The notes: generated by a model from the sequence alone, not told the origin. 64,000 bases of DNA from Candidatus Adlerbacteria bacterium (GCA_029288895.1 JARIGK010000004.1:175866-239865), one strand, 5' to 3'; counted from the first letter of the stretch, positions 10,557-37,150 are shown. Translations and numbers: made by a program.

Positions 10557-11003
10557 TCCCAAAAACTCTCTATACAATTTGCGGTGGAGGCCGAAGAAAT
10601 CTGGCATTGCATCGACAAGGTCGATAGGGAATTCCTGAGTTTCAAAAAACTCATCTTCATCTTTACCTGGAAATTTTTTTCCAGATAGGTCCCGAAGACG
10701 GCAATACGGAAGACGTGTTTTGTAGAAATACTGAAGATGAGGATTCGCTCCGTATACGGTATACGGTTTACGGACCTCTTCGATGCATACTTCGGGGTCG
10801 CCTCGGTTGGCGAGCCAAAAGCCACCTTCTTCCCACAGTGCGCGAATCACGGCGTCGATTTCGGACTCGCCTTCGTGCATCCCTTCGCCGATAAATTTCC
10901 ACGCATTCTCCGACTTCTTCAGATCTTTGATGAGCAACAGCGTGTCGGGCTGGCGGCTATAGATGGCGAGCATCATAACCGGGAGCCCAAAGTTTGTGTG
11001 CAT
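10545..11003 (-). CDS. NUDIX hydrolase
   Basis: Nudix box GEGMHEGESEIDAVIRALWEEGG (G-x5-E-x7-R[AE]-x2-EE-x-G), 152 aa. Confidence 0.7.
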   Translation of the reverse strand: MHTNFGLPVMMLAIYSRQPDTLLLIKDLKKSENAWKFIGEGMHEGESEIDAVIRALWEEGGFWLANRGDPEVCIEEVRKPYTVYGANPHLQYFYKTRLPYCRLRDLSGKKFPGKDEDEFFETQEFPIDLVDAMPDFFGLHRKLYREFLGYTA

Positions 11004-13133: not shown

Positions 13134-14066
13134 ATGAACTGGACTACCGTTAAACGAATATTCCGCTCCGGCCTCCTCGATTTTTGGAGAAACGGGTTCG
13201 TCTCACTCGCATCAATTTTGGTGATGACGGTAACGCTGTTTGTCGTAGGTATGACGCTCTTTGCGGGCGTTATTTTGCAAACGGCATTGAATGATTTGCG
13301 CGATAAAGCGGACGTGAGCGTGTACTTCACGACCAATGCACCCGAAGACAAAATATTGGAATTGCAGAAGTCGGTAAATGCGCTGCCGCAAGTTGAAAGT
13401 ACGCAGTATGTGTCGGCCGACGACGCGCTCGCGAACTTCCGCGAACGCCACCAGAACGACCAGCTTACCCTGCAAGCACTCCAAGAACTTGGCGCAAACC
13501 CGCTCGGCGCTGTGCTTAACATCAAAGCAAAAGATATTTCGCAGTACGACGCTATCGCGCAGTTTTTGGAACAGCAGCAGGCACTGTCCACGGGCAACGC
13601 AAGTATCATCGACAAGATTAACTACTTCGACGCGCAGCACCGCCAGGCGCTTGAGCGTCTGCAGAGCATCACCGACTCGGCAGGGACGCTTGGCCTCGTG
13701 ATTATCCTTATCTTGGTTGCGGTCACGATTGCTATTTCATTTAACACGCTGCGTTTGGCAATTTACACCTCGCGCGAAGAGATCCAGGTGATGCGCTTGG
13801 TGGGGGCGGGCTCGTTCTATATCCGTGCACCGTTTATGGTGGAGGGCGTGCTGTACGGCCTCATTTCGGGGCTCGTGACATTGATCCTCTTCTACCCGCT
13901 GACATACTGGTTGGGGAGCGCAACGGCCGACTTCTTTGGCGGCATCAACGTCTTCTCGTACTACGTATCGCACTTCCTTCAATTCTTCGCTATTATAGTC
14001 GGGACGGGCGTTGTGCTTGGGGCGGCAGCCAGCTACCTGGCGGTGCGCCGATATTTGAAGATTTAA
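13134..14066 (+). CDS. ftsX: Cell division permease-like protein FtsX
   Basis: Follows ftsE by 9 nt; 4-TM FtsX topology with a large extracytoplasmic loop; first ATG at 13134 (the ORF track starts at TTG 13128). Confidence 0.85.
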   Translation: MNWTTVKRIFRSGLLDFWRNGFVSLASILVMTVTLFVVGMTLFAGVILQTALNDLRDKADVSVYFTTNAPEDKILELQKSVNALPQVESTQYVSADDALANFRERHQNDQLTLQALQELGANPLGAVLNIKAKDISQYDAIAQFLEQQQALSTGNASIIDKINYFDAQHRQALERLQSITDSAGTLGLVIILILVAVTIAISFNTLRLAIYTSREEIQVMRLVGAGSFYIRAPFMVEGVLYGLISGLVTLILFYPLTYWLGSATADFFGGINVFSYYVSHFLQFFAIIVGTGVVLGAAASYLAVRRYLKI

Positions 14067-14074
14067 ATTGCTAG

Positions 14075-15739
14075 ATGAAATTTCCTTTTTCTAAATCCGA
14101 AAGCTCGAGCGAGAATCCAAAATATATTTTCGTCGTCGGCGGTGTGATGTCGGGCGTTGGCAAAGGCGTCGCGTCATCATCCATCGGCAAAATTTTGAAA
14201 GCAAAGGGGTTTAAGGTCACCGCGATTAAAATCGACCCCTACATCAACGTGGACGCTGGCACCATGAACCCGACAGAACACGGCGAAGTGTTCGTGTTGG
14301 ACGATGGCTACGAGACCGACCAGGATATGGGTAACTACGAGCGCTTTTTGGATGAGTCGCTGCCGCAGATTAACTACATGACCACCGGCCGCGTGTACCA
14401 GGAAATAATCCGCCGCGAGCGCAATTTGGAGTATGGTGGCAAAAACGTGGAAGTGGTACCGGACGTGCCACTCGAAGTAATTCGCCGCATCAAGCGCGCG
14501 CAAGAAGAAGCGAAGGCAGACATTACGCTTGTGGAAGTGGGCGGCACGATAGGCGAGTACCAGAACATCATCTTCCTCGAAGCGGCGCGTATGCTCAAAC
14601 AAAAGCATCCAAAAGATGTGGCCGTCGTGATGGTGTCGTATGTACCCATTCCGGGCAACATCGGCGAGATGAAGACCAAGCCGACGCAGTATGCGGCGCG
14701 CTCGCTGAACTCTGTCGGCCTCCAGGCGGATGTGATTTTGGCACGCGCACAAGTAGCGCTCGACGAAAAGCGCAAAGAAAAAATCGCTATCTTCTGCAAC
14801 ATCCCGACCGAGCATGTGATTTCGGCACCCGATGTCCAGAGTATTTATGATGTGCCAGGTAATTACGAAGAAGACGGCCTAGGCGACATTTTGACGGACG
14901 TCCTTTCCTTGCCAAAGAAAAAGACAGACCTTTCGGAGTGGAATACGTTTGTACAAAAATCAAAGAAGGCAACACAAGAAGTTGAGATAGCAGTTGTGGG
15001 CAAATACTTCTCATCGGGAGAGTTCGTGCTTTCGGACGTATATATTTCGGTGCTCGAGGCAATCAAGACTGCGGCGTACCACCTCGACCTCAAACCAAAA
15101 ATTACGTACCTGTCGTCGCAGGATTTTGAATCAGGAAAAATGGAATTGTCCGAGCTCGATCGCTTTGGCGGCATCTTGGTGCCGGGCGGCTTTGGCTCAA
15201 CAGGCGTCGAGGGCAAAATAAAAGTGATCCAGTACGCACGTGAGAAGAAGATCCCATATTTTGGCATTTGCTATGGCATGCAGTTGGCGGTGATTGAGTA
15301 TGCGCGCCATGTTGCAGGTATGAAAGATGCACACACACGGGAAATTTCCAAAGACACCGCGCACCCAGTGATCGACATTATGGAATCGCAGAAAGATATT
15401 GTTGAGCAGGGGAACTTTGGCGGCACGATGCGGTTGGGTACGTACCCATGCGTCATCAGAGAGGGGACCGTGGCACACACAGTCTTTGGCACAACAGAAA
15501 TTTCCGAGCGCCACCGCCACCGCTACGAAGTAAACACCGACTATATCGAAGAGATAGAAAAAGCGGGCATGGTCTTTTCGGGCAAGTCACCAAACGGCGT
15601 ACTCATGGAAATCGTTGAGCTTCCGAAAGATGTGCACCCGTTCTTTATGGGTATCCAGTCGCACCCCGAATTCCTCTCGCGCCCACTTACTCCGCACCCG
15701 ATCTTCTCGGCGTTTATAAAGGCCGCAAGCAAAAAATAA
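14075..15739 (+). CDS. pyrG: CTP synthase
   Basis: 554 aa; N-terminal synthetase domain (KYIFVVGGVMSGVGKG) and C-terminal GATase with catalytic Cys (GICYGMQ). Confidence 0.95.
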   Translation: MKFPFSKSESSSENPKYIFVVGGVMSGVGKGVASSSIGKILKAKGFKVTAIKIDPYINVDAGTMNPTEHGEVFVLDDGYETDQDMGNYERFLDESLPQINYMTTGRVYQEIIRRERNLEYGGKNVEVVPDVPLEVIRRIKRAQEEAKADITLVEVGGTIGEYQNIIFLEAARMLKQKHPKDVAVVMVSYVPIPGNIGEMKTKPTQYAARSLNSVGLQADVILARAQVALDEKRKEKIAIFCNIPTEHVISAPDVQSIYDVPGNYEEDGLGDILTDVLSLPKKKTDLSEWNTFVQKSKKATQEVEIAVVGKYFSSGEFVLSDVYISVLEAIKTAAYHLDLKPKITYLSSQDFESGKMELSELDRFGGILVPGGFGSTGVEGKIKVIQYAREKKIPYFGICYGMQLAVIEYARHVAGMKDAHTREISKDTAHPVIDIMESQKDIVEQGNFGGTMRLGTYPCVIREGTVAHTVFGTTEISERHRHRYEVNTDYIEEIEKAGMVFSGKSPNGVLMEIVELPKDVHPFFMGIQSHPEFLSRPLTPHPIFSAFIKAASKK

Positions 15740-15782
15740 AACATTGAGCTTCGGGCATTTTTGGTGTACTTTGGAGCAGTAT

Positions 15783-15853
15783 TGCCAGATCGTCTAATGG
15801 TAGGACAACGGACTCTGAATCCGTTTATCTTGGTTCGAATCCAAGTCTGGCAG
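15783..15853 (+). tRNA. tRNA-Gln (CTG)
   Basis: U1-A72 acceptor TGCCAGA/TCTGGCA, anticodon stem ACGGA/TCCGT with loop CTCTGAA, T-arm CTTGGTTCGAATCCAAG. Confidence 0.8.
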
Positions 15854-15919
15854 CAGCTTAGTTTAGTATCGGACGACCAAGAGGGGTCAGGAGCTAACAA
15901 CTAATGTACTATTCCTAGT

Positions 15920-16516
15920 ATGGAATATAAATTTGTACTTGGCACTCTTGCGGCGCTTTTTGCCATAGGTAGCGCATATCTCTATATTCGGGATATATTC
16001 CGCGGTAATACAAAACCTCATACCTACACATGGATTATATGGTCCATTGTTACCGCCATTGGGTTTCTTGGACAATGGTATACCGGTGGAGGAGCAGGCT
16101 CATGGGCCACAGGGGTGACAGCTTGTTACTGTTTCATCATTCTGTTTCTTTGCTTCAAATATGGAACAAGCGATATTACGAAGTTTGATCTACTGTGTTT
16201 GGTTCTGGCAATTACCTCTATTGTCCCGTGGCTCTTCTCCCACAATATTTTGTGGTCTGTAATTTTAGCAACAATAACTGATCTACTTGGCTTTCTTCCT
16301 ACAATACGAAAAACATGGCGCGCTCCGCGTAGTGAATCACTCGGGTCACTCTGGTTCGACGTTTTTAAACACGGGCTTTCTGTTGCGTCACTTCAAACGT
16401 ATTCACTTACTACATGGTTGTATCCAGCCGCTATTATCATTGCAAAGATGATGCAGGTGGTCGAAATATCGTATTTACGGTTTCTACGAAAGGAACATAA
16501 GGCGGCTCAAGTATAA
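15920..16516 (+). CDS. Multi-TM membrane protein, paralog 2
   Basis: YLYIRDIFRGNTKPHTYTW..., FDLLCLVLAITSIVPW, LPTIRKTWRAP motifs shared with 7710..8306; AT-richer than its neighbours. Confidence 0.55.
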   Translation: MEYKFVLGTLAALFAIGSAYLYIRDIFRGNTKPHTYTWIIWSIVTAIGFLGQWYTGGGAGSWATGVTACYCFIILFLCFKYGTSDITKFDLLCLVLAITSIVPWLFSHNILWSVILATITDLLGFLPTIRKTWRAPRSESLGSLWFDVFKHGLSVASLQTYSLTTWLYPAAIIIAKMMQVVEISYLRFLRKEHKAAQV

Positions 16517-16524
16517 TTATCTAT

Positions 16525-17151
16525 ATGAGCGAAGTATTTTTGGGTTTACCGATTGCACACTGGCTCGTCCTTCTTTCCATCGGCATCAGTTCAACAGGAG
16601 GCATAACCTACCTCCTCAACATGTTTCGAGGAAAATCCAAACCCAACTTGGTTTCGTGGGGTCTGTGGGGCTTGGCCCCACTTATTGCAACAGGAGCGGC
16701 TATTTCGGCTCATGCCGATTTGTGGGGCACTGCACGTGTTTTTATTTCTGGTTTTGTACCGTTCGTTATTTTTATGTTCGGTCTGTTTTTGAAGCAAAGT
16801 TACTGGAAACTCACTCGCTTCGACTTCTTCTGTGGAGTACTTTCCGTAATTGCTCTAATTGCATGGCTTATTGCTCATGCTCCCGTTGCGGCAATTTTGT
16901 TCGCGATAGCTGCAGACTTGTTTGCCTCAGTGCCGACTCTAGTAAAAGGATGGCAAAGCCCTCATACCGAAACGGCAACCGTTTTTCTTACAAGCCTCAT
17001 ATCATCTCTCATCACAATCCCTGCTATCCCAGTTTGGAATCTTGAAAACACCGCATTTCAAGCGTATCTGATTATTGTAAATCTGGCTTTGTTTGGAGTC
17101 ATAACTTTAGGTAAACTCCTAAAGCCAACACAAAGTGTTTCGACTCAATAG
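16525..17151 (+). CDS. Multi-TM membrane protein, paralog 3 (tandem with paralog 2)
   Basis: LNMFRGKSKPNLVSWGLW, FDFFCGVLSVIALIAW, VPTLVKGWQSPHTE motifs. Confidence 0.55.
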   Translation: MSEVFLGLPIAHWLVLLSIGISSTGGITYLLNMFRGKSKPNLVSWGLWGLAPLIATGAAISAHADLWGTARVFISGFVPFVIFMFGLFLKQSYWKLTRFDFFCGVLSVIALIAWLIAHAPVAAILFAIAADLFASVPTLVKGWQSPHTETATVFLTSLISSLITIPAIPVWNLENTAFQAYLIIVNLALFGVITLGKLLKPTQSVSTQ

Positions 17152-17239
17152 TTCCGAACCCATCTAACCATTGCAGCCAGTAAAATTTTTGCAGTGAAAT
17201 AAGGATATTTTGGATAGGATGATTGGATGATCAGAACTG
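17150..17239 (+). repeat. Intergenic repeat element A, copy 1 (supplies the start codon of the downstream gene)
   Basis: AGTTCCGAACCCATCTAACCATTGCAGCCAGTAAAATTTTTGCAGTGAAATAAGGATATTTTGGATAGGATGATTGGATGATCAGAACTG; near-identical copies at 18314, 19177 and a partial copy at 17738. Confidence 0.75.
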
Positions 17240-17685
17240 CTATACTTCCTGTAATGGAAAAGAGAATACCGGCACTTACGCCAGAGTTAAAAATCACTGA
17301 CTTTAAGAAGAGTCTAAAATTTTATACTACACTCGCTGGTTTTGATATTGAGTACGAACGTCCTGAAGACGAATTCGCAATGCTCAGCAAAGGAGATGCA
17401 TGGATTATGATTGAATCCATTAGCGATAAAAGTCGCATAATGAAAGCAGGGGCTCTCGAGTATCCTTTTGGGCGCGGCATGCATTTTCAGATACAGGTTG
17501 AAGATGTGCAGTCGCTCTACGATACTTTTAAAAGCAATTCTCATCCTATCTTCTCCGAAATGGAAGATAAGTGGTATCGAACAGGCGAGACCGAGGGAGG
17601 GAATAGGCAATTTTGGGTACAAGACCCTGACGGCTACATGCTGCGCTTCTATCAGGACTTAGGTTCTAGGCCTTTTCAGAAGTAG
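17227..17685 (+). CDS. VOC-family protein (glyoxalase / bleomycin-resistance-like)
   Basis: 152 aa with beta-alpha-beta-beta-beta-like modules (KITDFKKSLKFYTTLAGFDI..., WVQDPDGYMLRF); start codon lies inside repeat A copy 1. Confidence 0.6.
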   Translation: MIRTAILPVMEKRIPALTPELKITDFKKSLKFYTTLAGFDIEYERPEDEFAMLSKGDAWIMIESISDKSRIMKAGALEYPFGRGMHFQIQVEDVQSLYDTFKSNSHPIFSEMEDKWYRTGETEGGNRQFWVQDPDGYMLRFYQDLGSRPFQK

Positions 17686-17691
17686 CAGTCC

Positions 17692-17765
17692 AGTTCCGAA
17701 CGACACTAAAATAATCAGTATGGATTTGTATCAAATTGATTCCGAACCCATCTAACCATTGCAGC
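17692..17765 (+). repeat. Repeat element A, truncated copy 2: an isolated AGTTCCGAAC half, then ...TTCCGAACCCATCTAACCATTGCAGC fused to the next gene start
   Basis: AGTTCCGAAC at 17692-17701 directly after the VOC stop; the first 26 bp of element A at 17740-17765 are followed immediately by ATG 17767. Confidence 0.6.
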
Positions 17766-17766
17766 A

Positions 17767-18288
17767 ATGAAAAAGATTTATATAACGGGAGTTTCAGGGA
17801 CAGGAAAAACTACCATTGCACATGAATTAGAAAAGAGGGGCTACCTTGTTGTGAGTATTGATGAGGTGTCAGGGCTGTGCTCATGGACGCATCAAGAGAC
17901 AGGAGAAAAACATGGCGGCAAAGATACGCCCCTCACTAAAGAATTTGTTGATGCCCATGATTGGATTGTAGATATCGAACACTTGAATAAACTTCTCGAT
18001 AAAGATGTCGAAGTGGCGTTTGTACTAGGTATGGCTGGTAATCAGAATGAGTTCTTGCCATCATTCGATAAAATCTTATTGCTAGAATGTAACCCCGAAA
18101 CCTTCAGTGCGAGAATTGACGCACGAACAGACAATGATTTTGGTAAAGACCCACAAATCAAAGCTCAAATTCTCAACCGCTATAAAACTTACGGGGAAGA
18201 GATGCGTTCGCGAGGTGCTATTGTTGTAAATACCGATAGGCCTATTGATGCGGTGGTCAAAGATGTTATTGCTCAAGCCAATGCATAA
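17767..18288 (+). CDS. P-loop NTPase, small kinase-like (adenylate/shikimate-kinase fold)
   Basis: Walker A ITGVSGTGKTTIAHEL at the extreme N-terminus; 173 aa. Confidence 0.6.
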   Translation: MKKIYITGVSGTGKTTIAHELEKRGYLVVSIDEVSGLCSWTHQETGEKHGGKDTPLTKEFVDAHDWIVDIEHLNKLLDKDVEVAFVLGMAGNQNEFLPSFDKILLLECNPETFSARIDARTDNDFGKDPQIKAQILNRYKTYGEEMRSRGAIVVNTDRPIDAVVKDVIAQANA

Positions 18289-18313
18289 AAACCTTTGCTT
18301 CTTGCCAGTACGG

Positions 18314-18403
18314 AGTTCTGAACTTATCTAACTCGGGCAGCCAGTAAAATTTTTGCAGTGAAATAAGGATATTTTGGATAGGATGATTGGATTATCAGAA
18401 CTG
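18314..18403 (+). repeat. Repeat element A, copy 3 (internal ATG mutated to ATT)
   Basis: AGTTCTGAACTTATCTAACTCGGGCAGCCAGTAAAATTTTTGCAGTGAAATAAGGATATTTTGGATAGGATGATTGGATTATCAGAACTG. Confidence 0.75.
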
Positions 18404-18474
18404 ATTGATATTAGTTAGTCAGTCTTGTATAACTCCCTACAGCCATAAGTTCCATTTTTTCGAGAGGATGACAG

Positions 18475-19086
18475 ATGAACGATCTTGTTAAAGGTCTCGT
18501 TCGCAAGGAAAATATGTTGCAAGAGCTTCTTTCGTTGCCTCGCGACCAACTGGGCAAGGCGATCCAGAGAATCCAGGCCGAGGCTGAAGCGCAGAGTGCC
18601 TTCAAGTTGGGACAGCTCGTTCGAACTTGCAATTCTCCGGGCATCTCACTCGTGGGTGGCCTCAGCGAACTTCCGCACGACCACAATGACCCAAAGCAGC
18701 ATTCCAATACGCGTGTCGTGGGCTGGAATTCTTTTGGTGAAATTGAAGTCGCCACTTCTTACGGGAGTAACCCACATTGTTGCAAGTGGACGCATAGTGA
18801 AAGCAAGATGATTCCTTGCGAGGACGCCGACTGGGCTACTCAAAGTCTTCGCAAACGCGACGAAAAAGTCTCCTACGTATGGGAGCTTCGCGGATTTTGG
18901 GAGGCTGACAATCATGTCGGTGAAGTGGTGCCGGCGATTCTTGTTGTTCCTCACATTAAGGAAGGAGATTGGATCGTACGCTATGCCAAGCCGCATAAGC
19001 GACACGACTGGATCATCCGCGTCATCAACGAGAAACAGATGCTCCCGTCTCTCCCCGACAACGAGTACCCCGCCTCCGACGAATAG
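18475..19086 (+). CDS. Hypothetical protein
   Basis: 203-aa ORF downstream of repeat A copy 3; no recognisable motif. Confidence 0.5.
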   Translation: MNDLVKGLVRKENMLQELLSLPRDQLGKAIQRIQAEAEAQSAFKLGQLVRTCNSPGISLVGGLSELPHDHNDPKQHSNTRVVGWNSFGEIEVATSYGSNPHCCKWTHSESKMIPCEDADWATQSLRKRDEKVSYVWELRGFWEADNHVGEVVPAILVVPHIKEGDWIVRYAKPHKRHDWIIRVINEKQMLPSLPDNEYPASDE

Positions 19087-19093
19087 TCGTGGG

Positions 19094-19137
19094 CGTTTTT
19101 CTTTTCCTTTGTTCTGAAGCACCTATGTTAAAATTTC
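19094..19137 (+). repeat. Repeat element B, copy 1 (T-rich tract + TTGTTCTGAAGCACCTATGTTAAAATTTC)
   Basis: Shares a ~30-bp identical core with 20012..20054; contains an extended -10-like TGTTAAAAT. Confidence 0.6.
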
Positions 19138-19176
19138 GGTATTGGAAGCTCAGTTGTTGTTTTGAGCCACGAAACT

Positions 19177-19265
19177 GTTCCGAACCCATCTCACCATTGC
19201 AGCCAGTAAAATTTTTGTTAAGAAATAAGGGTATTTTGGATAGGTAAATTGGATGATTAGAACTT
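19177..19265 (+). repeat. Repeat element A, copy 4 (its internal ATG opens a 19-codon mini-ORF, MIRTLERFNLLNAEILFVW)
   Basis: TGTTCCGAACCCATCTCACCATTGCAGCCAGTAAAATTTTTGTTAAGAAATAAGGGTATTTTGGATAGGTAAATTGGATGATTAGAACTT. Confidence 0.7.
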
Positions 19266-19401
19266 TAGAACGATTTAATCTATTAAATGCAGAAATTCTT
19301 TTTGTTTGGTAGCCTGTCAGAGGAGTAATCTTGCTCCAGCTCCGAGCCCTATAGCGGAATGCTGGGCTCATATTGCAGTGGAATACTGCAAGGAGAGAAC
19401 A

Positions 19402-19980
19402 ATGAAAGTCTCAACCGAAGCGCAGATTGCGCAGTTCATTCAAGAGTATCCCATCCTCGAGAAGCCAATTGAGATATTGCGCAGGAGAGCGAGCGGCGGG
19501 AATAATGTCGCCTTGCGTATTCACATCGCGGTCAAACGCATGGATACGCTGATGCCTTACTTTGTGGGGAACCCGACCAAACCACGTGCGTGGATTCCAG
19601 GTGAGGGTATCAACAAGGGTCTCGACGGCACTGAAGAAGCGCGAGCATATGTCTATTGGCCAATGGCGCACGAGCCGCTCCACTTTCTTTTTGAGTGGTC
19701 TCCAGGAGATGCCCATAAACTCGGGAACCTGCTGCTCGGTATCAAACCCGAAGAAATCGGGCACGTGGTCATCGAGACCTGCTATGTCTGGCATGAGCGC
19801 AGGAAGGATATCACATGGGAAAGTATTGTTGGGCGCACTCCCATGCGGGCGATAGAGGCTACGTTCGTAGTCTTGTTACCGCCTAAGAGCGGGACGGTGG
19901 CGGAGCTGTTCGAAAAAGCTAAACGGGAACATCCTGAACTGAAAACACCCAAGGAGCACGTTGAGTTTCTGAATCGTTAG
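19402..19980 (+). CDS. Hypothetical protein
   Basis: Shine-Dalgarno AAGGAGAG 6 nt before ATG 19402; 192 aa; strong terminator follows. Confidence 0.55.
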   Translation: MKVSTEAQIAQFIQEYPILEKPIEILRRRASGGNNVALRIHIAVKRMDTLMPYFVGNPTKPRAWIPGEGINKGLDGTEEARAYVYWPMAHEPLHFLFEWSPGDAHKLGNLLLGIKPEEIGHVVIETCYVWHERRKDITWESIVGRTPMRAIEATFVVLLPPKSGTVAELFEKAKREHPELKTPKEHVEFLNR

Positions 19981-19988
19981 GACATCGC

Positions 19989-20012
19989 GGGCCGCCCTTC
20001 TTTTGGGCGGCC
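19989..20012 (+). terminator. Rho-independent terminator
   Basis: GGGCCGCCC-ttctttt-GGGCGGCC followed by TTTTCTTTTT (the T-run continues into element B). Confidence 0.65.
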
Positions 20013-20054
20013 TTTTCTTTTTAATTTGTTCTGAAGCACCTATGTTAAAATTTC
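20012..20054 (+). repeat. Repeat element B, copy 2
   Basis: CTTTTCTTTTTAATTTGTTCTGAAGCACCTATGTTAAAATTTC, 17 bp before ATG 20072. Confidence 0.6.
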
Positions 20055-20071
20055 AGTTAAGAGCTTAAAGT

Positions 20072-20587
20072 ATGAGAGCCAAAACTGTACGTGTGAATGA
20101 CAGAATGCAGAAAGGGTACAGCTACACCCTGAGCGAGCCCGTGGGCAAAAATTTTGACCCGCGTTTCCAGCCCGACCTTACGCCAAAACAAATGCTCGCA
20201 CTTGGTGTGTTTGGCGGCGTCTACATGCGCGACTGCAGAAAAGAATTTCCAAAGGATTGGTTTGCGAAAGCCAAGTTTCAAACGAAAGGAGTGTATGAAC
20301 AAGATCCAACAATTAATTTTTTTAAGGTGAAGGCGAGTCAGTCGCTTAGCGAATGGAAGAGAAAAGGGTGGATATATAAAGACGACCCGCGCGGATGGTT
20401 CCAATGGTACTGCCGCTACTATATGGGGCGCCGCGGGGAGGATGACGAGCGGCAGATCAAACGCTGGGTTGCTATCCGTCGCCACATTGCGCAAATAGTA
20501 AAGAACTGCCGCAAGGGAGATTTTTCATGCCACTCAAAACAGCGGCAAGCTGTTCTTCACTGGGCGTACGACAGCAGGACGTTATAA
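20072..20587 (+). CDS. Hypothetical protein (Trp/Arg-rich)
   Basis: 171-aa ORF after element B copy 2; no recognisable motif. Confidence 0.5.
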   Translation: MRAKTVRVNDRMQKGYSYTLSEPVGKNFDPRFQPDLTPKQMLALGVFGGVYMRDCRKEFPKDWFAKAKFQTKGVYEQDPTINFFKVKASQSLSEWKRKGWIYKDDPRGWFQWYCRYYMGRRGEDDERQIKRWVAIRRHIAQIVKNCRKGDFSCHSKQRQAVLHWAYDSRTL

Positions 20588-20594
20588 TTGAGGT

Positions 20595-20996
20595 ATGAAA
20601 ACAGCGACGCAATATTTCCATTACAAAAAACCAACATGGGCGCCGCCGTCGTGGCTCTTTGGTCCCGTATGGACCGTGCTCTACATTCTTATCGCGATTT
20701 CGTTTGGATACGTTGGCTACTTGTGGTTTACGAATGCAATCACACCCCAAATACTTCTCCCGTTTGTACTCAACCTCATATTCAATTTTCTGTTTACTCC
20801 AATCCAATTTCGGTTGCGCAATTTTACGCTCGCTGCCGTCGATATCATACTGGTTTGGACAACCCTTGTATGGGCGCTGGTAACTATTTTGCCTATTGCA
20901 TCGTGGGTCGCGTACATTAACTTGCCATACCTTGCGTGGGTGAGCTTCGCCACCGTCTTGCAGTTCACGATTACTGCGATGAATAGAAAGGCGTAG
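20595..20996 (+). CDS. TspO/MBR family (tryptophan-rich sensory protein)
   Basis: KPTWAPPSWLFGPVWTVLYILIAISFGYV matches the TspO signature; 133 aa, 5 TM. Confidence 0.75.
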   Translation: MKTATQYFHYKKPTWAPPSWLFGPVWTVLYILIAISFGYVGYLWFTNAITPQILLPFVLNLIFNFLFTPIQFRLRNFTLAAVDIILVWTTLVWALVTILPIASWVAYINLPYLAWVSFATVLQFTITAMNRKA

Positions 20997-21063
20997 GTAC
21001 TTCACTCGTTCCCCAGAACGGGCAGGTACAATAGAGGGGTTATTTATTTTGTAAGAAAAAACT

Positions 21064-21411
21064 ATGAACAAATATTTCGTTACATTCTCGATGCCGGCTG
21101 CGACTATCCAAAACTGGATGGCGACTGTCGACGAAGAGACTCGCAAAACTCAGACAGAAGACATGATGCAAAAGTGGGAGCAGTGGATGGCCGAGCATGC
21201 AGCGCAGGTTGTCGATAAAGGCATGCCGCTTGGCCGAACAAAGCGCATCACAAGCCAGGGCATTACTGATGTTAAGAACGAACTCAACTTTTACATCATT
21301 GTCGAGGCCGAAAGCCACGACGCTGCGGCAGAGCTACTTCGCACGCATCCGCAGTTAGCTATCATCCCCGACACCTATATCGAGGTGATGACTACAACGG
21401 GCCCGCAGTGA
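21064..21411 (+). CDS. Hypothetical small protein (possibly YciI-like alpha/beta fold)
   Basis: 115 aa; weak resemblance (YIIVEAESHDAAAELLRTHP); not recognised confidently. Confidence 0.45.
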   Translation: MNKYFVTFSMPAATIQNWMATVDEETRKTQTEDMMQKWEQWMAEHAAQVVDKGMPLGRTKRITSQGITDVKNELNFYIIVEAESHDAAAELLRTHPQLAIIPDTYIEVMTTTGPQ

Positions 21412-21436
21412 AGCCCTAATGGTATAGTTGGAGTAT

Positions 21437-23056
21437 ATGAGTATGTTGAGCAGGGTATTTGGCCGTGTCCGCGCGTGGGCATGGTACTCCAAAGTTGCTG
21501 CGGCAGTAGCGGTTGTTGCTGTTGTGGGCGTGGGCGTGCATGCACTGACGCGCACCAATGACGCTACTACTACAACGCCACAAGTGTCGCACGTGCGCGA
21601 AGCATCCGTTGCGAGCCTTTCGTCGCAGAGCGTGGGGCCATTGCCTGTCGTGGGCAACGTGACATCGCTCGATCATGCAACACTGCTTGCGCAAACGTCT
21701 GGTCCTGTGACGAGCCTTTCGAAATCGCTTGGTTCGTACGTCGCCGCGGGCGGCGTGATAGGCGAGCTTGAAAACAGCGCCCAGCGCGCAGCCGTACTCC
21801 AAGCACAAGGTGCGTACGAAGCAGCGCAAGCGTCATTTGCAAACACCAGCGGGACGTCGGCGCAAAACTCTGGCATCGGTGCAAATCAGGCAGTGCAAAA
21901 TGTGGCAAACACACAAGCAAGTGCAAACACTGCGATGCAAAGCCTCTACTCGGCGCTCGACGACGCGGTGCATACCAAAGCCGACCTTTTGTTTACTAAC
22001 CCGCGCACTAATGCAACGCTTTTGCTGACGACAACCGACAGCCAGCTTGCTATTACCTTGCAGAACGAACGTGTCGCACTTGAGCACACGCTTTCGAATG
22101 CAAACAGCAAAGCAAATGCATCAACGCGCGCGGACACTGACGCTGACATCACAACGATGGCCGCGTATGGGCAGGCGACGGTAACCTTCCTTAACCATTT
22201 GGTCGAGGCGGTAAACAAAGCGCTGCCTACAGAAACTGTCACAGCGGCGCAAATTTCCGGGTACCAAACATCCATTGCTGCGGCACGCACCGAAGTAGTG
22301 AGTGCGCTCTCGAGCCTTTCGTCGGCAAAAACAGCGTATGATGCCGCGGTGGCAAGCGCTGCAACGGCAAGCAACACTGCGGGCACTGGCACAGCAAACA
22401 GCATTAGCGCAGCCGGGGCGCAGGTGACGCAGGCACAAGGCGCACTTGATGCTGCACGCTCGGCGCTTGAAAAAACAATCATCCGCTCGCCGATTTCCGG
22501 CACCATTGTAAGTTTGCCCATTACGCGCGGCGGCTTTGTCACTGCGGGCTCGCAAGTGGCAGTCGTCTCAAACCCAGGCGCTTTGGAGGTTGATGCGTAT
22601 GTAACGCCAAGCGATGCGAAGACCATTGTCGTCGGTGGCGTGGCAACCATAGGGCAGGGCACCCGCGGCGTTATCGTTTCTATTGCACCAGCGCTCGACC
22701 CAACCATCGGCAAAATTTTGGTAAAGATTGGTATTCCGGGCAGCCAAGCAGCGCTCACCGATGGTGACACCGTCTCTGTCACACTCGCACGCTCGACGCC
22801 GGCACAGGTCAAACAACAAACAAAGACGCCAGAAGGTACGGTGCTTATTCCGATAGTTGCAGCAAAAATTACGCCTCAAGGCCCCGTCGTCTTCCAAGTG
22901 ACTGCGTCATCGACTTTGCACAGCATCCCTGTGACGCTCGGCACTATTTTGGGCGAACAAGTTACCATCACAAGCGGTCTTACCCCTGACATGAGTATCG
23001 TTACCGATGCGCGCGGGCTCTCCGATGGCGACACGGTCGTCGTCGACACTCAATAA
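21437..23056 (+). CDS. Efflux periplasmic adaptor (HlyD/membrane fusion protein family), long form
   Basis: N-terminal TM helix, very long Ala/Thr/Gln-rich helical region, C-terminal beta-barrel motifs (IRSPISGTIVSL, VVSNPGALEVDAYV); 3 nt upstream of the RND gene. Confidence 0.8.
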   Translation: MSMLSRVFGRVRAWAWYSKVAAAVAVVAVVGVGVHALTRTNDATTTTPQVSHVREASVASLSSQSVGPLPVVGNVTSLDHATLLAQTSGPVTSLSKSLGSYVAAGGVIGELENSAQRAAVLQAQGAYEAAQASFANTSGTSAQNSGIGANQAVQNVANTQASANTAMQSLYSALDDAVHTKADLLFTNPRTNATLLLTTTDSQLAITLQNERVALEHTLSNANSKANASTRADTDADITTMAAYGQATVTFLNHLVEAVNKALPTETVTAAQISGYQTSIAAARTEVVSALSSLSSAKTAYDAAVASAATASNTAGTGTANSISAAGAQVTQAQGALDAARSALEKTIIRSPISGTIVSLPITRGGFVTAGSQVAVVSNPGALEVDAYVTPSDAKTIVVGGVATIGQGTRGVIVSIAPALDPTIGKILVKIGIPGSQAALTDGDTVSVTLARSTPAQVKQQTKTPEGTVLIPIVAAKITPQGPVVFQVTASSTLHSIPVTLGTILGEQVTITSGLTPDMSIVTDARGLSDGDTVVVDTQ

Positions 23057-36428: not shown

Positions 36429-36444
36429 AGATTAGTGTACCTTG

Positions 36445-36457
36445 TGTATAGTATACA
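36445..36457. promoter_or_regulatory. Perfect 13-bp palindrome TGTATAgTATACA in the alkB<>lexA divergent intergenic region; candidate LexA operator
   Basis: Only 53 bp separate the two start codons; the palindrome sits 25 bp upstream of the lexA ATG. Confidence 0.35.
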
Positions 36458-36481
36458 TACATCGCGTGGTAGGATATACAC

Positions 36482-37150
36482 ATGAACATCCAACATCTAC
36501 TAACCTTCAAGCAGCAGCGAGTGCTTGATGCGGTGCGTGAATATATTAATGAGGAAGATAGGTCGCCTACGCTCGAGCAATTGCGTGCAACGCTCGGCTT
36601 TTCGTCACTGCGCACCGTAACCCAGTATTTGGACATCTTGGAGCGGAAGGGCTACATCGTCCGCCGCAAAAATGCTGCGCGTAATATCGAACTGCGCAAC
36701 GTCGATGGTGCGTGGGGGACAGTCTCTATCCCTGTTATTGCCAACGTAGGCTGCGACGACCTTTCTGTTTTTGCACAAAATTCAAACTCGGCTGACGAGT
36801 TTTTGGAAGTCGACAAGCGCATTGTCGATGAAGAGGAAGGCGATATTGTGGCGGTGCGCGCCATCGGCGACAGTATGAATGACGCCGGCATTAACACTGG
36901 CGACTACGTGCTTATTCGCTTTACCAACGACGTGCGTGATGGCGACCGTGTGGCTGCAATCGTCAACGACATGGTGACGGTCAAACGTTTGGAGCGCCGC
37001 GACGGCATGACCATCCTGTGGCCGCAGTCTAAAGACCCGAAATTCAAACCCATCATTTTGAAGGATGATTTTAAAATCGCCGGCAAAGTGCTCTGCGTGA
37101 TCCCAAGCAACCAGATGGAAATGACAGAGGTTGTACCGCTTGAGGATTAA
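36482..37150 (+). CDS. lexA: LexA repressor (S24 peptidase)
   Basis: N-terminal wHTH, Ala-Gly cleavage region, catalytic Ser in GDSM and Lys in the C-terminal domain. Confidence 0.85.
   Translation: MNIQHLLTFKQQRVLDAVREYINEEDRSPTLEQLRATLGFSSLRTVTQYLDILERKGYIVRRKNAARNIELRNVDGAWGTVSIPVIANVGCDDLSVFAQNSNSADEFLEVDKRIVDEEEGDIVAVRAIGDSMNDAGINTGDYVLIRFTNDVRDGDRVAAIVNDMVTVKRLERRDGMTILWPQSKDPKFKPIILKDDFKIAGKVLCVIPSNQMEMTEVVPLED

What the first reader, a model, noticed from the sequence alone, without database searches (positions are those of the whole stretch)
17150..19265. Element A: ~90-bp repeat with palindromic 5' core, matching 3' half-site and an embedded start codon
Consensus: AGTTCCGAACCCATCTAACCATTGCAGCCAGTAAAATTTTTGCAGTGAAATAAGGATATTTTGGATAGGATGATTGGATGATCAGAACTG. 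The 5' end is a near-palindrome GTTC(C/T)GAAC. The 3' end, ATCAGAACTG, contains the matching half-site CAGAAC, so each element is bounded by related inverted motifs like a recombination site pair. The internal ATGATCAGAACT supplies the MIRT start of the VOC gene in copy 1. In copy 4 the same ATG opens only a 19-codon mini-ORF. In copy 3 it is mutated to ATT. In copy 2 the element is truncated after TTGCAGC and fused to the kinase ATG, with an orphan AGTTCCGAAC left at 17692-17701. This pattern suggests a modular 5' cassette end or mobile promoter-RBS-start module that recombines at the GTTC/GAAC core.
Basis: seen in the sequence. Interest (0 to 1): 0.75.

Follow-up and report, generated by a model that had tools for sequence, protein, structure and literature searches.

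The report
tRNA-Gln-like junction sites of gene cassettes
The ~90-bp repeat is real. It is best read as the junction site of a small array of single-gene cassettes next to a glutamine tRNA gene in a candidate-phyla-radiation bacterium, because its first 28 bases imitate the 3' end of that tRNA; this hints at an integron-like way of swapping accessory genes in these tiny genomes.

Summary
There are three full ~90-nt copies (17150-17239, 18314-18403, 19176-19265), a 28-nt truncated copy (17738-17765) and an orphan AGTTCCGAAC (17692-17701). All lie on the + strand, in a low-GC stretch just downstream of tRNA-Gln(CTG) (15783-15854) in an Adlerbacteria-like Patescibacterium.

Three points are new.
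1. The first 28 nt ("left arm", GTTCYGAAC..ATCTAAC....GCAGC) resemble the 3' end of tRNA-Gln: 15-17 of 20 positions match, and it is the best match among 7 tRNAs.
2. The same left-arm family (12 sites, 6 genomes) follows cargo genes in related genomes. Sequence continuity breaks right after GCAGC(CAG), the same point where the tRNA-Gln flank becomes variable in 8 genomes.
3. One cassette (a 203-aa gene), with Element A on both sides, recurs at 85% identity at a different locus in another genome. The VOC gene sits directly behind tRNA-Gln in a third genome.

The embedded ATG is not the VOC start; ten homologs start at 17254. I found no promoter, Rfam family, significant fold, target duplication or nearby recombinase.

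Best reading (about 0.5): these are att-like recombination junctions of an integron-like cassette array, with the enzyme unknown and acting in trans. It is a new variant of a known kind.

The parts
15783..15854 (+). tRNA-Gln(CTG) gene. Its 3' end (..ATCCAAGTCTGGCAGC) is the natural counterpart of the Element A left arm, and the variable array starts directly after it.
   Evidence: ARAGORN; Rfam tRNA 66 bits. The flanks of this tRNA differ from GCAGC onward in 8 genomes.
15920..17151 (+). First cargo block: two paralogous membrane-protein genes (198 and 208 aa). The stop codon of the second overlaps the first base of Element A copy 1.
   Evidence: ORFs; no Pfam hit; 23% identity, E=1e-17 to each other, and absent from the loci of relatives.
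17150..17177 (+). Element A copy 1, left arm (type I): AGTTCCGAACCCATCTAACCATTGCAGC, resembling the tRNA-Gln 3' end.
17178..17239 (+). Element A copy 1, right arm (R1). It is A/T-rich with GGAT repeats and ends in TCAGAACT, an inverted copy of the left-arm start. It contains the non-conserved ATG at 17227.
17254..17685 (+). VOC / bleomycin-resistance-like cargo gene. The probable true start is 17254; the annotated start is 17227.
   Evidence: Pfam Glyoxalase; homolog alignment. The same gene lies 20 nt behind tRNA-Gln in L032.
17692..17737 (+). Orphan AGTTCCGAAC (17692-17701) plus a 36-nt filler. This is either a truncated left arm or a B-like piece, lying 6 nt after the VOC stop.
   Evidence: In L032 a left-arm homolog starts 3 nt after the VOC stop.
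17738..17765 (+). Element A copy 2: left arm only (type I). It is joined at GCAGC|A to the kinase ATG.
17767..18288 (+). P-loop kinase (AAA_18) cargo gene.
   Evidence: Pfam.
18314..18341 (+). Element A copy 3, left arm (type II): AGTTCTGAACTTATCTAACTCGGGCAGC. It is the copy closest to tRNA-Gln (17 of 20) and to the L007 left arm.
18342..18403 (+). Element A copy 3, right arm (R1). It differs from the copy 1 right arm at one position.
18475..19086 (+). 203-aa cargo gene of unknown function. It recurs in L037 with flanking Element A copies.
19092..19140 (+). Element B copy 1: a T-rich tail, then GTTCTGAAG, then TGTTAAAAT (like an extended -10 box). It is conserved behind the 203-aa gene in L037.
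19176..19265 (+). Element A copy 4: left arm type I at 19176-19203 and right arm at 19204-19265. It is the most diverged copy.
19402..19980 (+). 192-aa cargo gene of unknown function.
19989..20057 (+). Terminator-like hairpin (19989-20013) and Element B copy 2 (20009-20057). This is the last repeat before the conserved gene at 20072.
   Evidence: The 171-aa gene at 20072 is conserved in L029 and L030.

Best explanation
Element A is the junction site of a small array of mobile gene cassettes that begins at the tRNA-Gln gene.

Each element has two halves with separate histories.
- The left arm is 28 nt (GTTCYGAAC-NN-ATCYAAC-NNNN-GCAGC). It mimics the T-loop-to-3'-end of tRNA-Gln and ends the cassette upstream.
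- The right arm is about 62 nt. It begins the cassette downstream and ends in an inverted copy of the left-arm start.

Inferred mechanism: a site-specific recombinase that is not encoded in this window binds the inverted half-sites and exchanges strands in the short core GCAGC/CAG. This would let one-gene circles enter, leave or swap at the tRNA-Gln 3' end and at any existing junction. The cassettes are co-oriented with the tRNA and may be read through from upstream.

Shown here: the repeat, its likeness to the tRNA, the break points, and the recurrence of cassettes in other genomes.

Inferred only: the enzyme, the circular intermediates and present-day activity.
For: 1. tRNA likeness. Copy 3's ATCTAACTCGGGCAGCCAGT matches the tRNA-Gln end plus flank ATCCAAGTCTGGCAGCCAGT at 17 of 20 positions; copies 1 and 4 match at 15 of 20. 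None of 200 shuffles reached these scores. All 8 left arms tested score best against tRNA-Gln among the window's 7 tRNAs.

2. Position and orientation. All copies lie downstream of tRNA-Gln and in the same orientation, within a 41-49% GC stretch against 52% background. No other copy exists in the 64 kb.

3. A conserved family. There are 12 left arms in 6 genomes, each starting 0-30 nt after the stop of a cargo gene in most cases. They stay 75-90% alike while the neighbouring genes are unrelated.

4. Break points at one spot.
- Copy 1 versus copy 3: 7 of 8 differences fall in nt 1-23 (P=2e-4).
- Copy 3 and the L007 left arm differ at 3 of 28 positions, but their right arms are only about 55% alike.
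- Copy 2 and L037 p2 lose similarity right after GCAGC. L037 p2 is identical to L037 A1 over 38 of 38 nt before that point.
- The tRNA-Gln flanks of 8 genomes diverge from the same GCAGC.

5. Interchangeable partners. The right-hand sequence CAGTTTGAG(A/C)TAG follows tRNA-Gln in L031 and L028. It also follows left arms in L028 and L037.

6. Cassette recurrence.
- The block A, 203-aa gene, B, A is 85% identical over 966 nt between the window and L037. L037 is a different locus, next to purL/purM and with no tRNA. Homology falls to background exactly at the outer ends of the two elements.
- The VOC gene lies 20 nt after tRNA-Gln in L032 and is again followed by a left arm.

7. Variable content. 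The gene content between tRNA-Gln and the conserved genes differs in every relative.
Against: - No recombinase was found among 50 window ORFs or among the array ORFs of L037 and L028.
- No circular or empty-site form was observed.
- Right arms are more alike within a genome than between genomes (98% between copies 1 and 3, against about 75% between window and L037). That fits gene conversion as well as site-specific exchange.
- The window's own tRNA-Gln is not followed by an R1 right arm.
- The left arm is 5 nt longer than the tRNA segment, so it is not a simple displaced tRNA end.
- Four close relatives (L026, L029, L030, L031) show no full element within 10 kb.
- Only three genomes carry the full 90-nt form.
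Confidence: 0.5

Rival explanations
1. The elements are inert scars. They would be worn remains of old, larger integrative islands (tycheposon- or ssrA-island-like) that inserted one after another into the tRNA-Gln 3' end and then lost their integrases and most of their content. The copies would be kept similar only by gene conversion.
For: - No integrase is nearby.
- There are truncated and diverged copies (copy 2, copy 4, the orphan).
- Partial tRNAs scattered through tRNA-linked islands are described for Prochlorococcus (10.1101/2020.12.28.424599).
- Right arms are homogenised within a genome.
Against: - Left arms share the same 5-nt insertion relative to the tRNA, and the same length, in 6 genomes. 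They therefore descend from a site family, not from repeated displacement of the resident tRNA end.
- They are conserved while their surroundings are unrelated.
- The 203-aa cassette with both flanking sites occurs at a locus without a tRNA in L037.
- The units are single genes, not island-sized.
Confidence: 0.22
2. The element is a regulatory module: a promoter, operator or 5' leader with a palindromic GTTCnGAAC operator at each end for a dimeric regulator. It would have been copied in front of several accessory genes by duplication and homologous recombination.
For: - Two copies of a 9-bp palindrome lie about 78 bp apart.
- The interior is A/T-rich with TAAAAT and AGGA motifs.
- Elements lie upstream of co-oriented genes.
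- Element B carries TGTTAAAAT.
Against: - No sigma-70-like match falls inside Element A.
- The candidate -10 and -35 boxes, the RBS and the ATG are not conserved between the window, L007 and L037.
- The left arm alone occurs directly after stop codons and fused to an ATG (copy 2).
- The window's LexA has a different box upstream of its own gene.
- This reading does not explain the tRNA-Gln likeness or the shared break point.
Confidence: 0.13
3. The element is a miniature inverted-repeat transposable element (MITE), moved by a transposase encoded elsewhere.
For: It is about 90 bp long and has 8-bp perfect terminal inverted repeats extending to about 17 nt. There are several copies per genome. 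One compensatory change keeps the outermost pair, A-T in the window and G-C in L007.
Against: - No target-site duplication flanks any copy.
- All copies sit in one 2.1-kb cluster, in one orientation, at gene ends. None occurs elsewhere in 64 kb.
- Half-copies end at the internal GCAGC, not at the termini.
- There are no hits in phage, plasmid or viral collections.
Confidence: 0.05
4. The elements are integron attC sites, forming a CALIN-type array without an integrase, and recombine as folded single strands.
For: The array holds co-oriented single-gene cassettes separated by 60-140-nt sites with imperfect terminal inverted repeats and a variable middle.
Against: - The R boxes do not fit. The element starts with GTT and ends with AAC, which is the reverse of RYYYAAC...GTTRRRY.
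- Single-strand folds are no better than shuffles (z = +0.1 to +2.5).
- The break point lies 28 nt inside the element, not at its 3' end.
- No IntI is present.
Confidence: 0.03

Closest known systems
Tandem genomic islands at tRNA/tmRNA genes with partial-tRNA att repeats (Prochlorococcus tycheposons, 10.1101/2020.12.28.424599; Dehalococcoides ssrA islands, PMC3146451)
   Same: - A variable, low-GC region starts at the 3' end of a tRNA gene.
- Direct repeats resembling that 3' end separate successive cargo blocks.
- Newer insertions push older ones outward.
- The host genome is streamlined, with few classical mobile elements.
   Different: - The units here are single genes of 0.5-1.2 kb without integrase or replication genes.
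- The repeats are not copies of the resident tRNA end. They form a distinct family that is 5 nt longer and carries its own 62-nt right arm and inverted termini.
- One array (L037) is not at a tRNA.
Integron cassette arrays and CALINs (attC sites)
   Same: - Co-oriented one-gene cassettes, often promoterless.
- Each junction is a hybrid site of about 60-140 nt with imperfect inverted ends.
- The same cassette is found in different arrays.
- An entry site sits at a fixed gene, and read-through expression is possible.
   Different: - The attC consensus boxes are absent.
- There is no significant single-strand hairpin.
- The break point is internal.
- No IntI is present.
- The site imitates a tRNA 3' end.
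pdif / Xer-dependent modules of Acinetobacter plasmids (recalled from my own knowledge, not tested)
   Same: Small one- or few-gene modules bounded by about 28-bp recombination sites, moved by a recombinase encoded elsewhere in the genome.
   Different: - The left arm is not an 11-6-11 palindrome like dif.
- The sites here are in direct orientation, not alternating.
- The arrays are chromosomal and linked to a tRNA.
Large serine recombinase att sites (recalled from my own knowledge)
   Same: The compact site at tRNA-Gln in L031 is about 49 bp: two roughly 19-nt imperfect inverted half-sites around CTGGCAGCCAG. Junctions look like hybrid left/right half-site combinations. The L037 contig encodes a 474-aa Resolvase+Recombinase+Zn-ribbon protein about 7 kb from its array.
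   Different: In Element A the inverted right half-site lies about 45 nt from the core. No such enzyme is encoded in the window. The link has not been tested.

Membership tests
att repeats of tRNA-targeting integrative elements | A direct repeat of the 3' part of the target tRNA gene lies downstream of that gene, in the same orientation. | tested here: met
   15-17 of 20 positions match the tRNA-Gln 3' end, and tRNA-Gln is the best of 7 tRNAs. All copies lie on the + strand downstream of the tRNA. The repeat is imperfect and 5 nt longer than the tRNA segment.
att repeats of tRNA-targeting integrative elements | An integrase gene lies inside the bounded segment, next to one att site. | tested here: not met
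   No Phage_integrase, Resolvase or Recombinase domain was found in 50 window ORFs or in the array ORFs of L037 and L028.
att repeats of tRNA-targeting integrative elements | The bounded segments are variable and foreign in composition between related genomes. | tested here: met
   GC is 41-49% against 52%. Gene content after tRNA-Gln differs in all relatives.
Integron attC | R''/R' boxes RYYYAAC ... GTTRRRY lie at the two ends. | tested here: not met
   The element reads 5' GTTCYGAAC ... TCAGAAC 3'. Neither strand fits both boxes (read).
Integron attC | A stable hairpin forms in the folded single strand. | tested here: not met
   DNA folds range from -1.8 to -7.2 kcal/mol, with z scores of +0.09 to +2.5 against shuffles.
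Integron attC | An adjacent IntI integrase with attI and Pc. | tested here: not met
   No integrase is present in the window.
Integron attC | A match to the attC covariance model (IntegronFinder/HattCI). | not testable with these tools
   That model is not in Rfam. The Rfam scan of 14000-23000 found only the tRNA.
MITE | Terminal inverted repeats. | tested here: met
   An 8-bp perfect inverted repeat in copy 3 and L007, conserved in 4 of 4 aligned copies.
MITE | Target-site duplications and dispersed copies. | tested here: not met
   No duplicated flanks are present. All copies sit in one cluster, and none occurs elsewhere in the 64 kb.
Sigma-70 promoter module | -35 and -10 hexamers with 16-18 nt spacing, conserved among copies. 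| tested here: not met
   No site in Element A was found by the scan. Candidate boxes differ between the window, L007 and L037. Promoters of another type cannot be excluded.
Known structured RNA (Rfam) | A match to a curated covariance model, or a conserved fold with covariation. | tested here: not met
   No Rfam hit at E<=1. The consensus fold is -10 kcal/mol with a covariation term of -0.4, based on four sequences.

The most novel reading that the evidence does not exclude
Adlerbacteria-like CPR bacteria carry an integron-like gene-cassette system with three features:
- Its recombination site mimics the tRNA-Gln 3' end.
- The tRNA-Gln gene itself serves as the entry site, and perhaps as the promoter.
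- The recombinase acts in trans from elsewhere in the genome.

Single accessory genes (resistance-like VOC, kinase, defence-like, sigma factor) would then be captured, shuffled and exchanged between genomes without phages, plasmids or transposons.
Probability: 0.25. Interest if true: 0.8.

Novelty: new variant of a known kind. Interest (0 to 1): 0.6.

Why it matters
CPR/Patescibacteria have tiny genomes and few recognisable mobile elements, yet their gene content varies between strains. How they gain and lose genes is largely unknown.

This locus shows a repeated, conserved site family that resembles a tRNA end. It marks the borders of single-gene cargo units at a tRNA-linked hot spot, and at least one unit is shared between genomes at different loci. 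If the sites are active, this would be a compact cassette-exchange mechanism comparable to integrons or tycheposons, but with different sites and an unknown enzyme.

The 28-nt left arm also gives a concrete search key. It can be used to map such arrays and to find the recombinase by co-occurrence across genomes.

Tried and rejected
- **Rfam scan, 14000-23000.** It found only tRNA-Gln.
- **Single-strand DNA folds of three copies, both strands.** They were not better than shuffles, so an attC-like hairpin is rejected.
- **Consensus folds of four copies.** Only the terminal stem is conserved, and four sequences are too few for covariation.
- **Promoter scan.** No site falls in Element A.
- **LexA as the binder of GTTCnGAAC.** The window has a lexA gene, but its own upstream palindrome is TGTATAGTATACA-like, and GAAC-N4-GTTC is not enriched. 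Rejected.
- **Genome-collection scan with the 26-nt left-arm pattern.** It gave one chance hit in a Phycisphaerae MAG. The source species is not among the representative genomes.
- **Metagenome scan.** It gave 24 loci, of which only L007 is homologous. Nineteen peat-bog contigs share just the pattern. They are Acidobacteria, sit next to an rve-type IS end, and the nearby tRNA is Ala. I treat them as unrelated.
- **Viral, phage and plasmid searches.** All were empty.
- **Exact-protein look-ups of four window proteins.** All failed.
- **Kinase orthology.** The window kinase and the kinase directly behind tRNA-Gln in L026/L027 might have been orthologs, which would prove that copy 2 stands in for the tRNA end. 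Only the P-loop matches, so this argument was dropped.
- **Recombinase hunt by Pfam.** Fifty window ORFs and ten ORFs of the L037 and L028 arrays were scanned, and none was found.
- **The orphan plus 36 nt (17692-17737) as a third Element B copy.** The alignment is weak, so this is left open.
Full report
**1. The observation**

The repeat is real and far beyond chance.
- The repeat finder gives three 90-nt copies at 17150-17239, 18314-18403 (91% to the first) and 19176-19265 (87%).
- A fourth copy shares only the first ~28-34 nt (17740-17773) and then runs into the ATG of the next gene.
- Sub-patterns of 27 and 21 nt match three times each, where shuffles give none.
- GTTCYGAAC occurs five times in the window against one expected. 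Four of these are in the cluster, including the orphan at 17693-17701.
- The 3' end TCAGAACT is the reverse complement of the 5' AGTTCTGA, and the inverted repeat continues imperfectly to about 17 nt.

**2. Setting**

The closest relatives of the pyrG product (14075-15739) are CTP synthases of Candidatus Adlerbacteria, Paceibacterota and Patescibacteria. The window therefore comes from a CPR bacterium.

Element A lies in a 41-49% GC stretch, against about 52% elsewhere. This stretch begins right after tRNA-Gln(CTG) at 15783-15854. The genes in it are small, all on the + strand and functionally unrelated:
- two paralogous membrane proteins
- a VOC / bleomycin-resistance-like protein
- an AAA_18 kinase
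- two proteins of unknown function

Conserved genes resume at about 20072. The 171-aa gene is found in L029 and L030, the YCII-like gene in L028, and HlyD/RND in L026. Six relatives fetched through pyrG all have ftsE-ftsX-pyrG and a nearby tRNA-Gln, but each has a different gene set next to the tRNA. In three of them the tRNA is inverted relative to pyrG.

**3. What the element is not**

- No Rfam family matches it.
- Single-strand DNA folds of three copies on both strands are no better than shuffles (z = +0.1 to +2.5).
- Consensus folding of the four full-length copies keeps only the terminal 7-8-bp stem, with one compensatory pair.
- No sigma-70-like promoter lies in it.
- The window's LexA has a different palindrome in front of its own gene.
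- Phage, plasmid and viral collections hold nothing similar.
- The embedded ATG is not a conserved start. It is ATT in copy 3, missing in L007, and opens 5-codon ORFs in L037.
- All ten closest VOC homologs start at the residue matching Met10, which is ATG 17254, 15 nt after the element ends. The same ATGGAAAAGA start is visible in L036.

**4. The 5' part mimics the tRNA-Gln 3' end**

- Local alignment of the elements against tRNA-Gln plus flank from seven genomes gave ATCTAACTCGGGCAGCCAGT (copy 3) against ATCCAAGTCTGGCAGCCAGT (the T-loop end, T-stem, acceptor strand, discriminator, CCA and GT of the L031 gene). That is 17 of 20 positions.
- Copies 1 and 4 match at 15 of 20. None of 200 shuffles reached these scores.
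- Against the last 30 nt of all seven window tRNAs, each of eight left arms from four genomes scores highest with tRNA-Gln: 13-25, against 8-15 for the others.
- With a gap, GTTC of the T-loop also aligns. All elements are 5 nt longer than the tRNA between GTTC and the T-stem. They therefore form a site family of their own and are not displaced copies of the resident tRNA end.

**5. The family in other genomes**

A position weight matrix of the left arm finds 12 sites in 6 genomes and nothing else in the 64-kb window.
- **L007.** This syntenic relative came from the metagenome scan. It has tRNA-Gln, one gene, then a full-length element with the same ends (GGTTCTGAAC...ATCAGAACC).
- **L032.** The VOC gene (76% identical) starts 20 nt after tRNA-Gln. 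It is followed 3 nt after its stop by GGTTCCAACATCGTCCAAGACAGTCAGCA. The next gene is followed by a 93%-identical copy of that sequence.
- **L028.** Three genes follow tRNA-Gln, then comes a left arm.
- **L031.** The flank just 3' of the tRNA is an inverted left-arm-like half-site. This gives a ~49-bp imperfect palindrome centred on CTGGCAGCCAG.
- **L037.** The 203-aa gene (88% identical) is flanked by two full Element A copies and an Element B. Two left-arm-only copies lie 2.4 kb upstream and 2.1 kb downstream. The locus is next to purL/purM, has no tRNA, and is again low in GC.
- **Extent of the shared block.** Window-to-L037 homology (85% over 966 nt) spans exactly 18311-19265 and falls to background at the outer ends of the two elements.

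**6. Where continuity breaks**

- Copy 1 and copy 3 differ at eight positions, seven of them in nt 1-23 (hypergeometric P = 2e-4). Their right arms differ once.
- Copy 3 and the L007 element differ at 3 of the first 28 nt, but are only about 55% alike afterwards.
- Copy 2 is identical to copy 1 from nt 3 to 28, then unrelated.
- L037 p2 is identical to L037 A1 over 38 nt up to GCAGC, then unrelated.
- The flanks of tRNA-Gln in eight genomes diverge from the same GCAGC.
- The right-hand sequence CAGTTTGAG(A/C)TAG follows tRNA-Gln in L031 and L028. It also follows left arms in L028 and L037.
- Left halves (whether the tRNA end or a left arm) and right halves therefore occur in several combinations, joined at GCAGC/CAG.
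- The orphan at 17692 and the B elements (GTTCTGAAG followed by other sequence) hint at a second, rarer break at the palindrome.

**7. Interpretation**

These facts fit a site-specific exchange system. I propose a recombinase that recognises the ~17-19-nt half-site GTTCYRAAC-NN-ATCYAAC, which is present inverted at the far end of R1 or directly after the core in the compact sites. It would cut in the GCAGC/CAG core.

A circular cassette carrying left arm plus right arm could then enter at the tRNA-Gln end or at any junction. Every junction in the array would be a hybrid of two cassettes, as observed.

The left arm belongs to the gene upstream. It begins 0-30 nt after that gene's stop in most cases, and it travels with VOC in two genomes.

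The enzyme, the circles and present-day activity are inferred, not shown. No recombinase lies in the window or in the arrays. The only one seen is a large serine recombinase at the edge of the L037 locus.

Gene conversion among copies clearly also acts, since right arms are 98% alike within the window and about 75% alike between genomes. The rival reading, that the sites are inert scars of older integrations, therefore keeps real weight.

**8. Comparison with known systems**

The closest known pattern is the tRNA- or tmRNA-linked island built by successive integrations and punctuated by partial tRNA repeats. Examples are the tycheposons of Prochlorococcus (10.1101/2020.12.28.424599) and the ssrA islands of Dehalococcoides (PMC3146451).

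The organisation into co-oriented one-gene units with hybrid junction sites is that of integron arrays. However, the attC-defining boxes, hairpin and IntI were tested and not met.

Literature searches found no description of such arrays in Patescibacteria.

I file the finding as a new variant of a known kind. It is interesting because it offers a testable route of gene flux in CPR genomes, but it rests on comparative sequence evidence from few genomes.

Noticed in passing
window 19092-19140 and 20009-20057; L037 about 10620-10670: Element B is a second repeat (88% identity). It consists of a T-rich tail, GTTCTGAAG and TGTTAAAAT (like an extended -10 box), and sits behind two cargo genes. It is conserved behind the 203-aa gene in L037. 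It may be a read-out promoter or a decayed Element A.
   Followed up: partly
L031 5500-5550 and 6368-6397: The flank 3' of tRNA-Gln is an inverted left-arm-like half-site, so the tRNA end sits in a ~49-bp imperfect palindrome centred on CTGGCAGCCAG. A second inverted copy lies beyond the adjacent ClpP gene.
   Followed up: partly
L037 1-95 (gene runs off the locus): A 474-aa large serine recombinase (Resolvase, Recombinase and Zn-ribbon domains) lies about 7 kb from the L037 array, with purM and purL in between. It is a candidate enzyme, but the link is untested.
   Followed up: no
L007 3581-3820; L026 6305-6541; L029 15193-15432: A small GIY-YIG nuclease-family gene (78-79 aa) lies next to tRNA-Gln in L007 and L026, and about 6 kb downstream of it in L029. 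It is absent from the window.
   Followed up: no
L028 5995-8179: An IS605 OrfB/TnpB-like gene and a Cas1 gene are inserted between ftsE and ftsX in this relative.
   Followed up: no
window 36440-36470, upstream of lexA (36482-37150): The palindrome TGTATAGTATACA lies in front of lexA. It is a likely LexA box for this lineage and differs from the Gram-positive GAAC-N4-GTTC box.
   Followed up: partly
L007 3826-5500: pyrG is split into two overlapping ORFs (406 and 214 aa) in this metagenome contig. This is either a frameshift or an assembly error.
   Followed up: no
L026 6155-6226 and L027 7174-7245: A P-loop kinase-like gene starts 2 nt after the tRNA-Gln 3' end (GGCAGCAAATG). The arrangement mirrors window copy 2 plus its kinase (TTGCAGCAATG), although the two kinases share only the P-loop.
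   Followed up: yes
L037 7513-8547: The first cargo gene of the L037 array has a sub-threshold match to the Shedu SduA C-terminal nuclease domain (E=3e-4, 21.5 bits against a cut-off of 27). This hints at defence cargo.
   Followed up: no
L002-L024 (peat-bog metagenome contigs): Nineteen Acidobacteria contigs share TTCTGAACCAATCTAACAGCCGCAGCC next to the end of an rve-type insertion sequence, and many of them end about 45 nt beyond the match. I judged this a chance match to the search pattern.
   Followed up: partly
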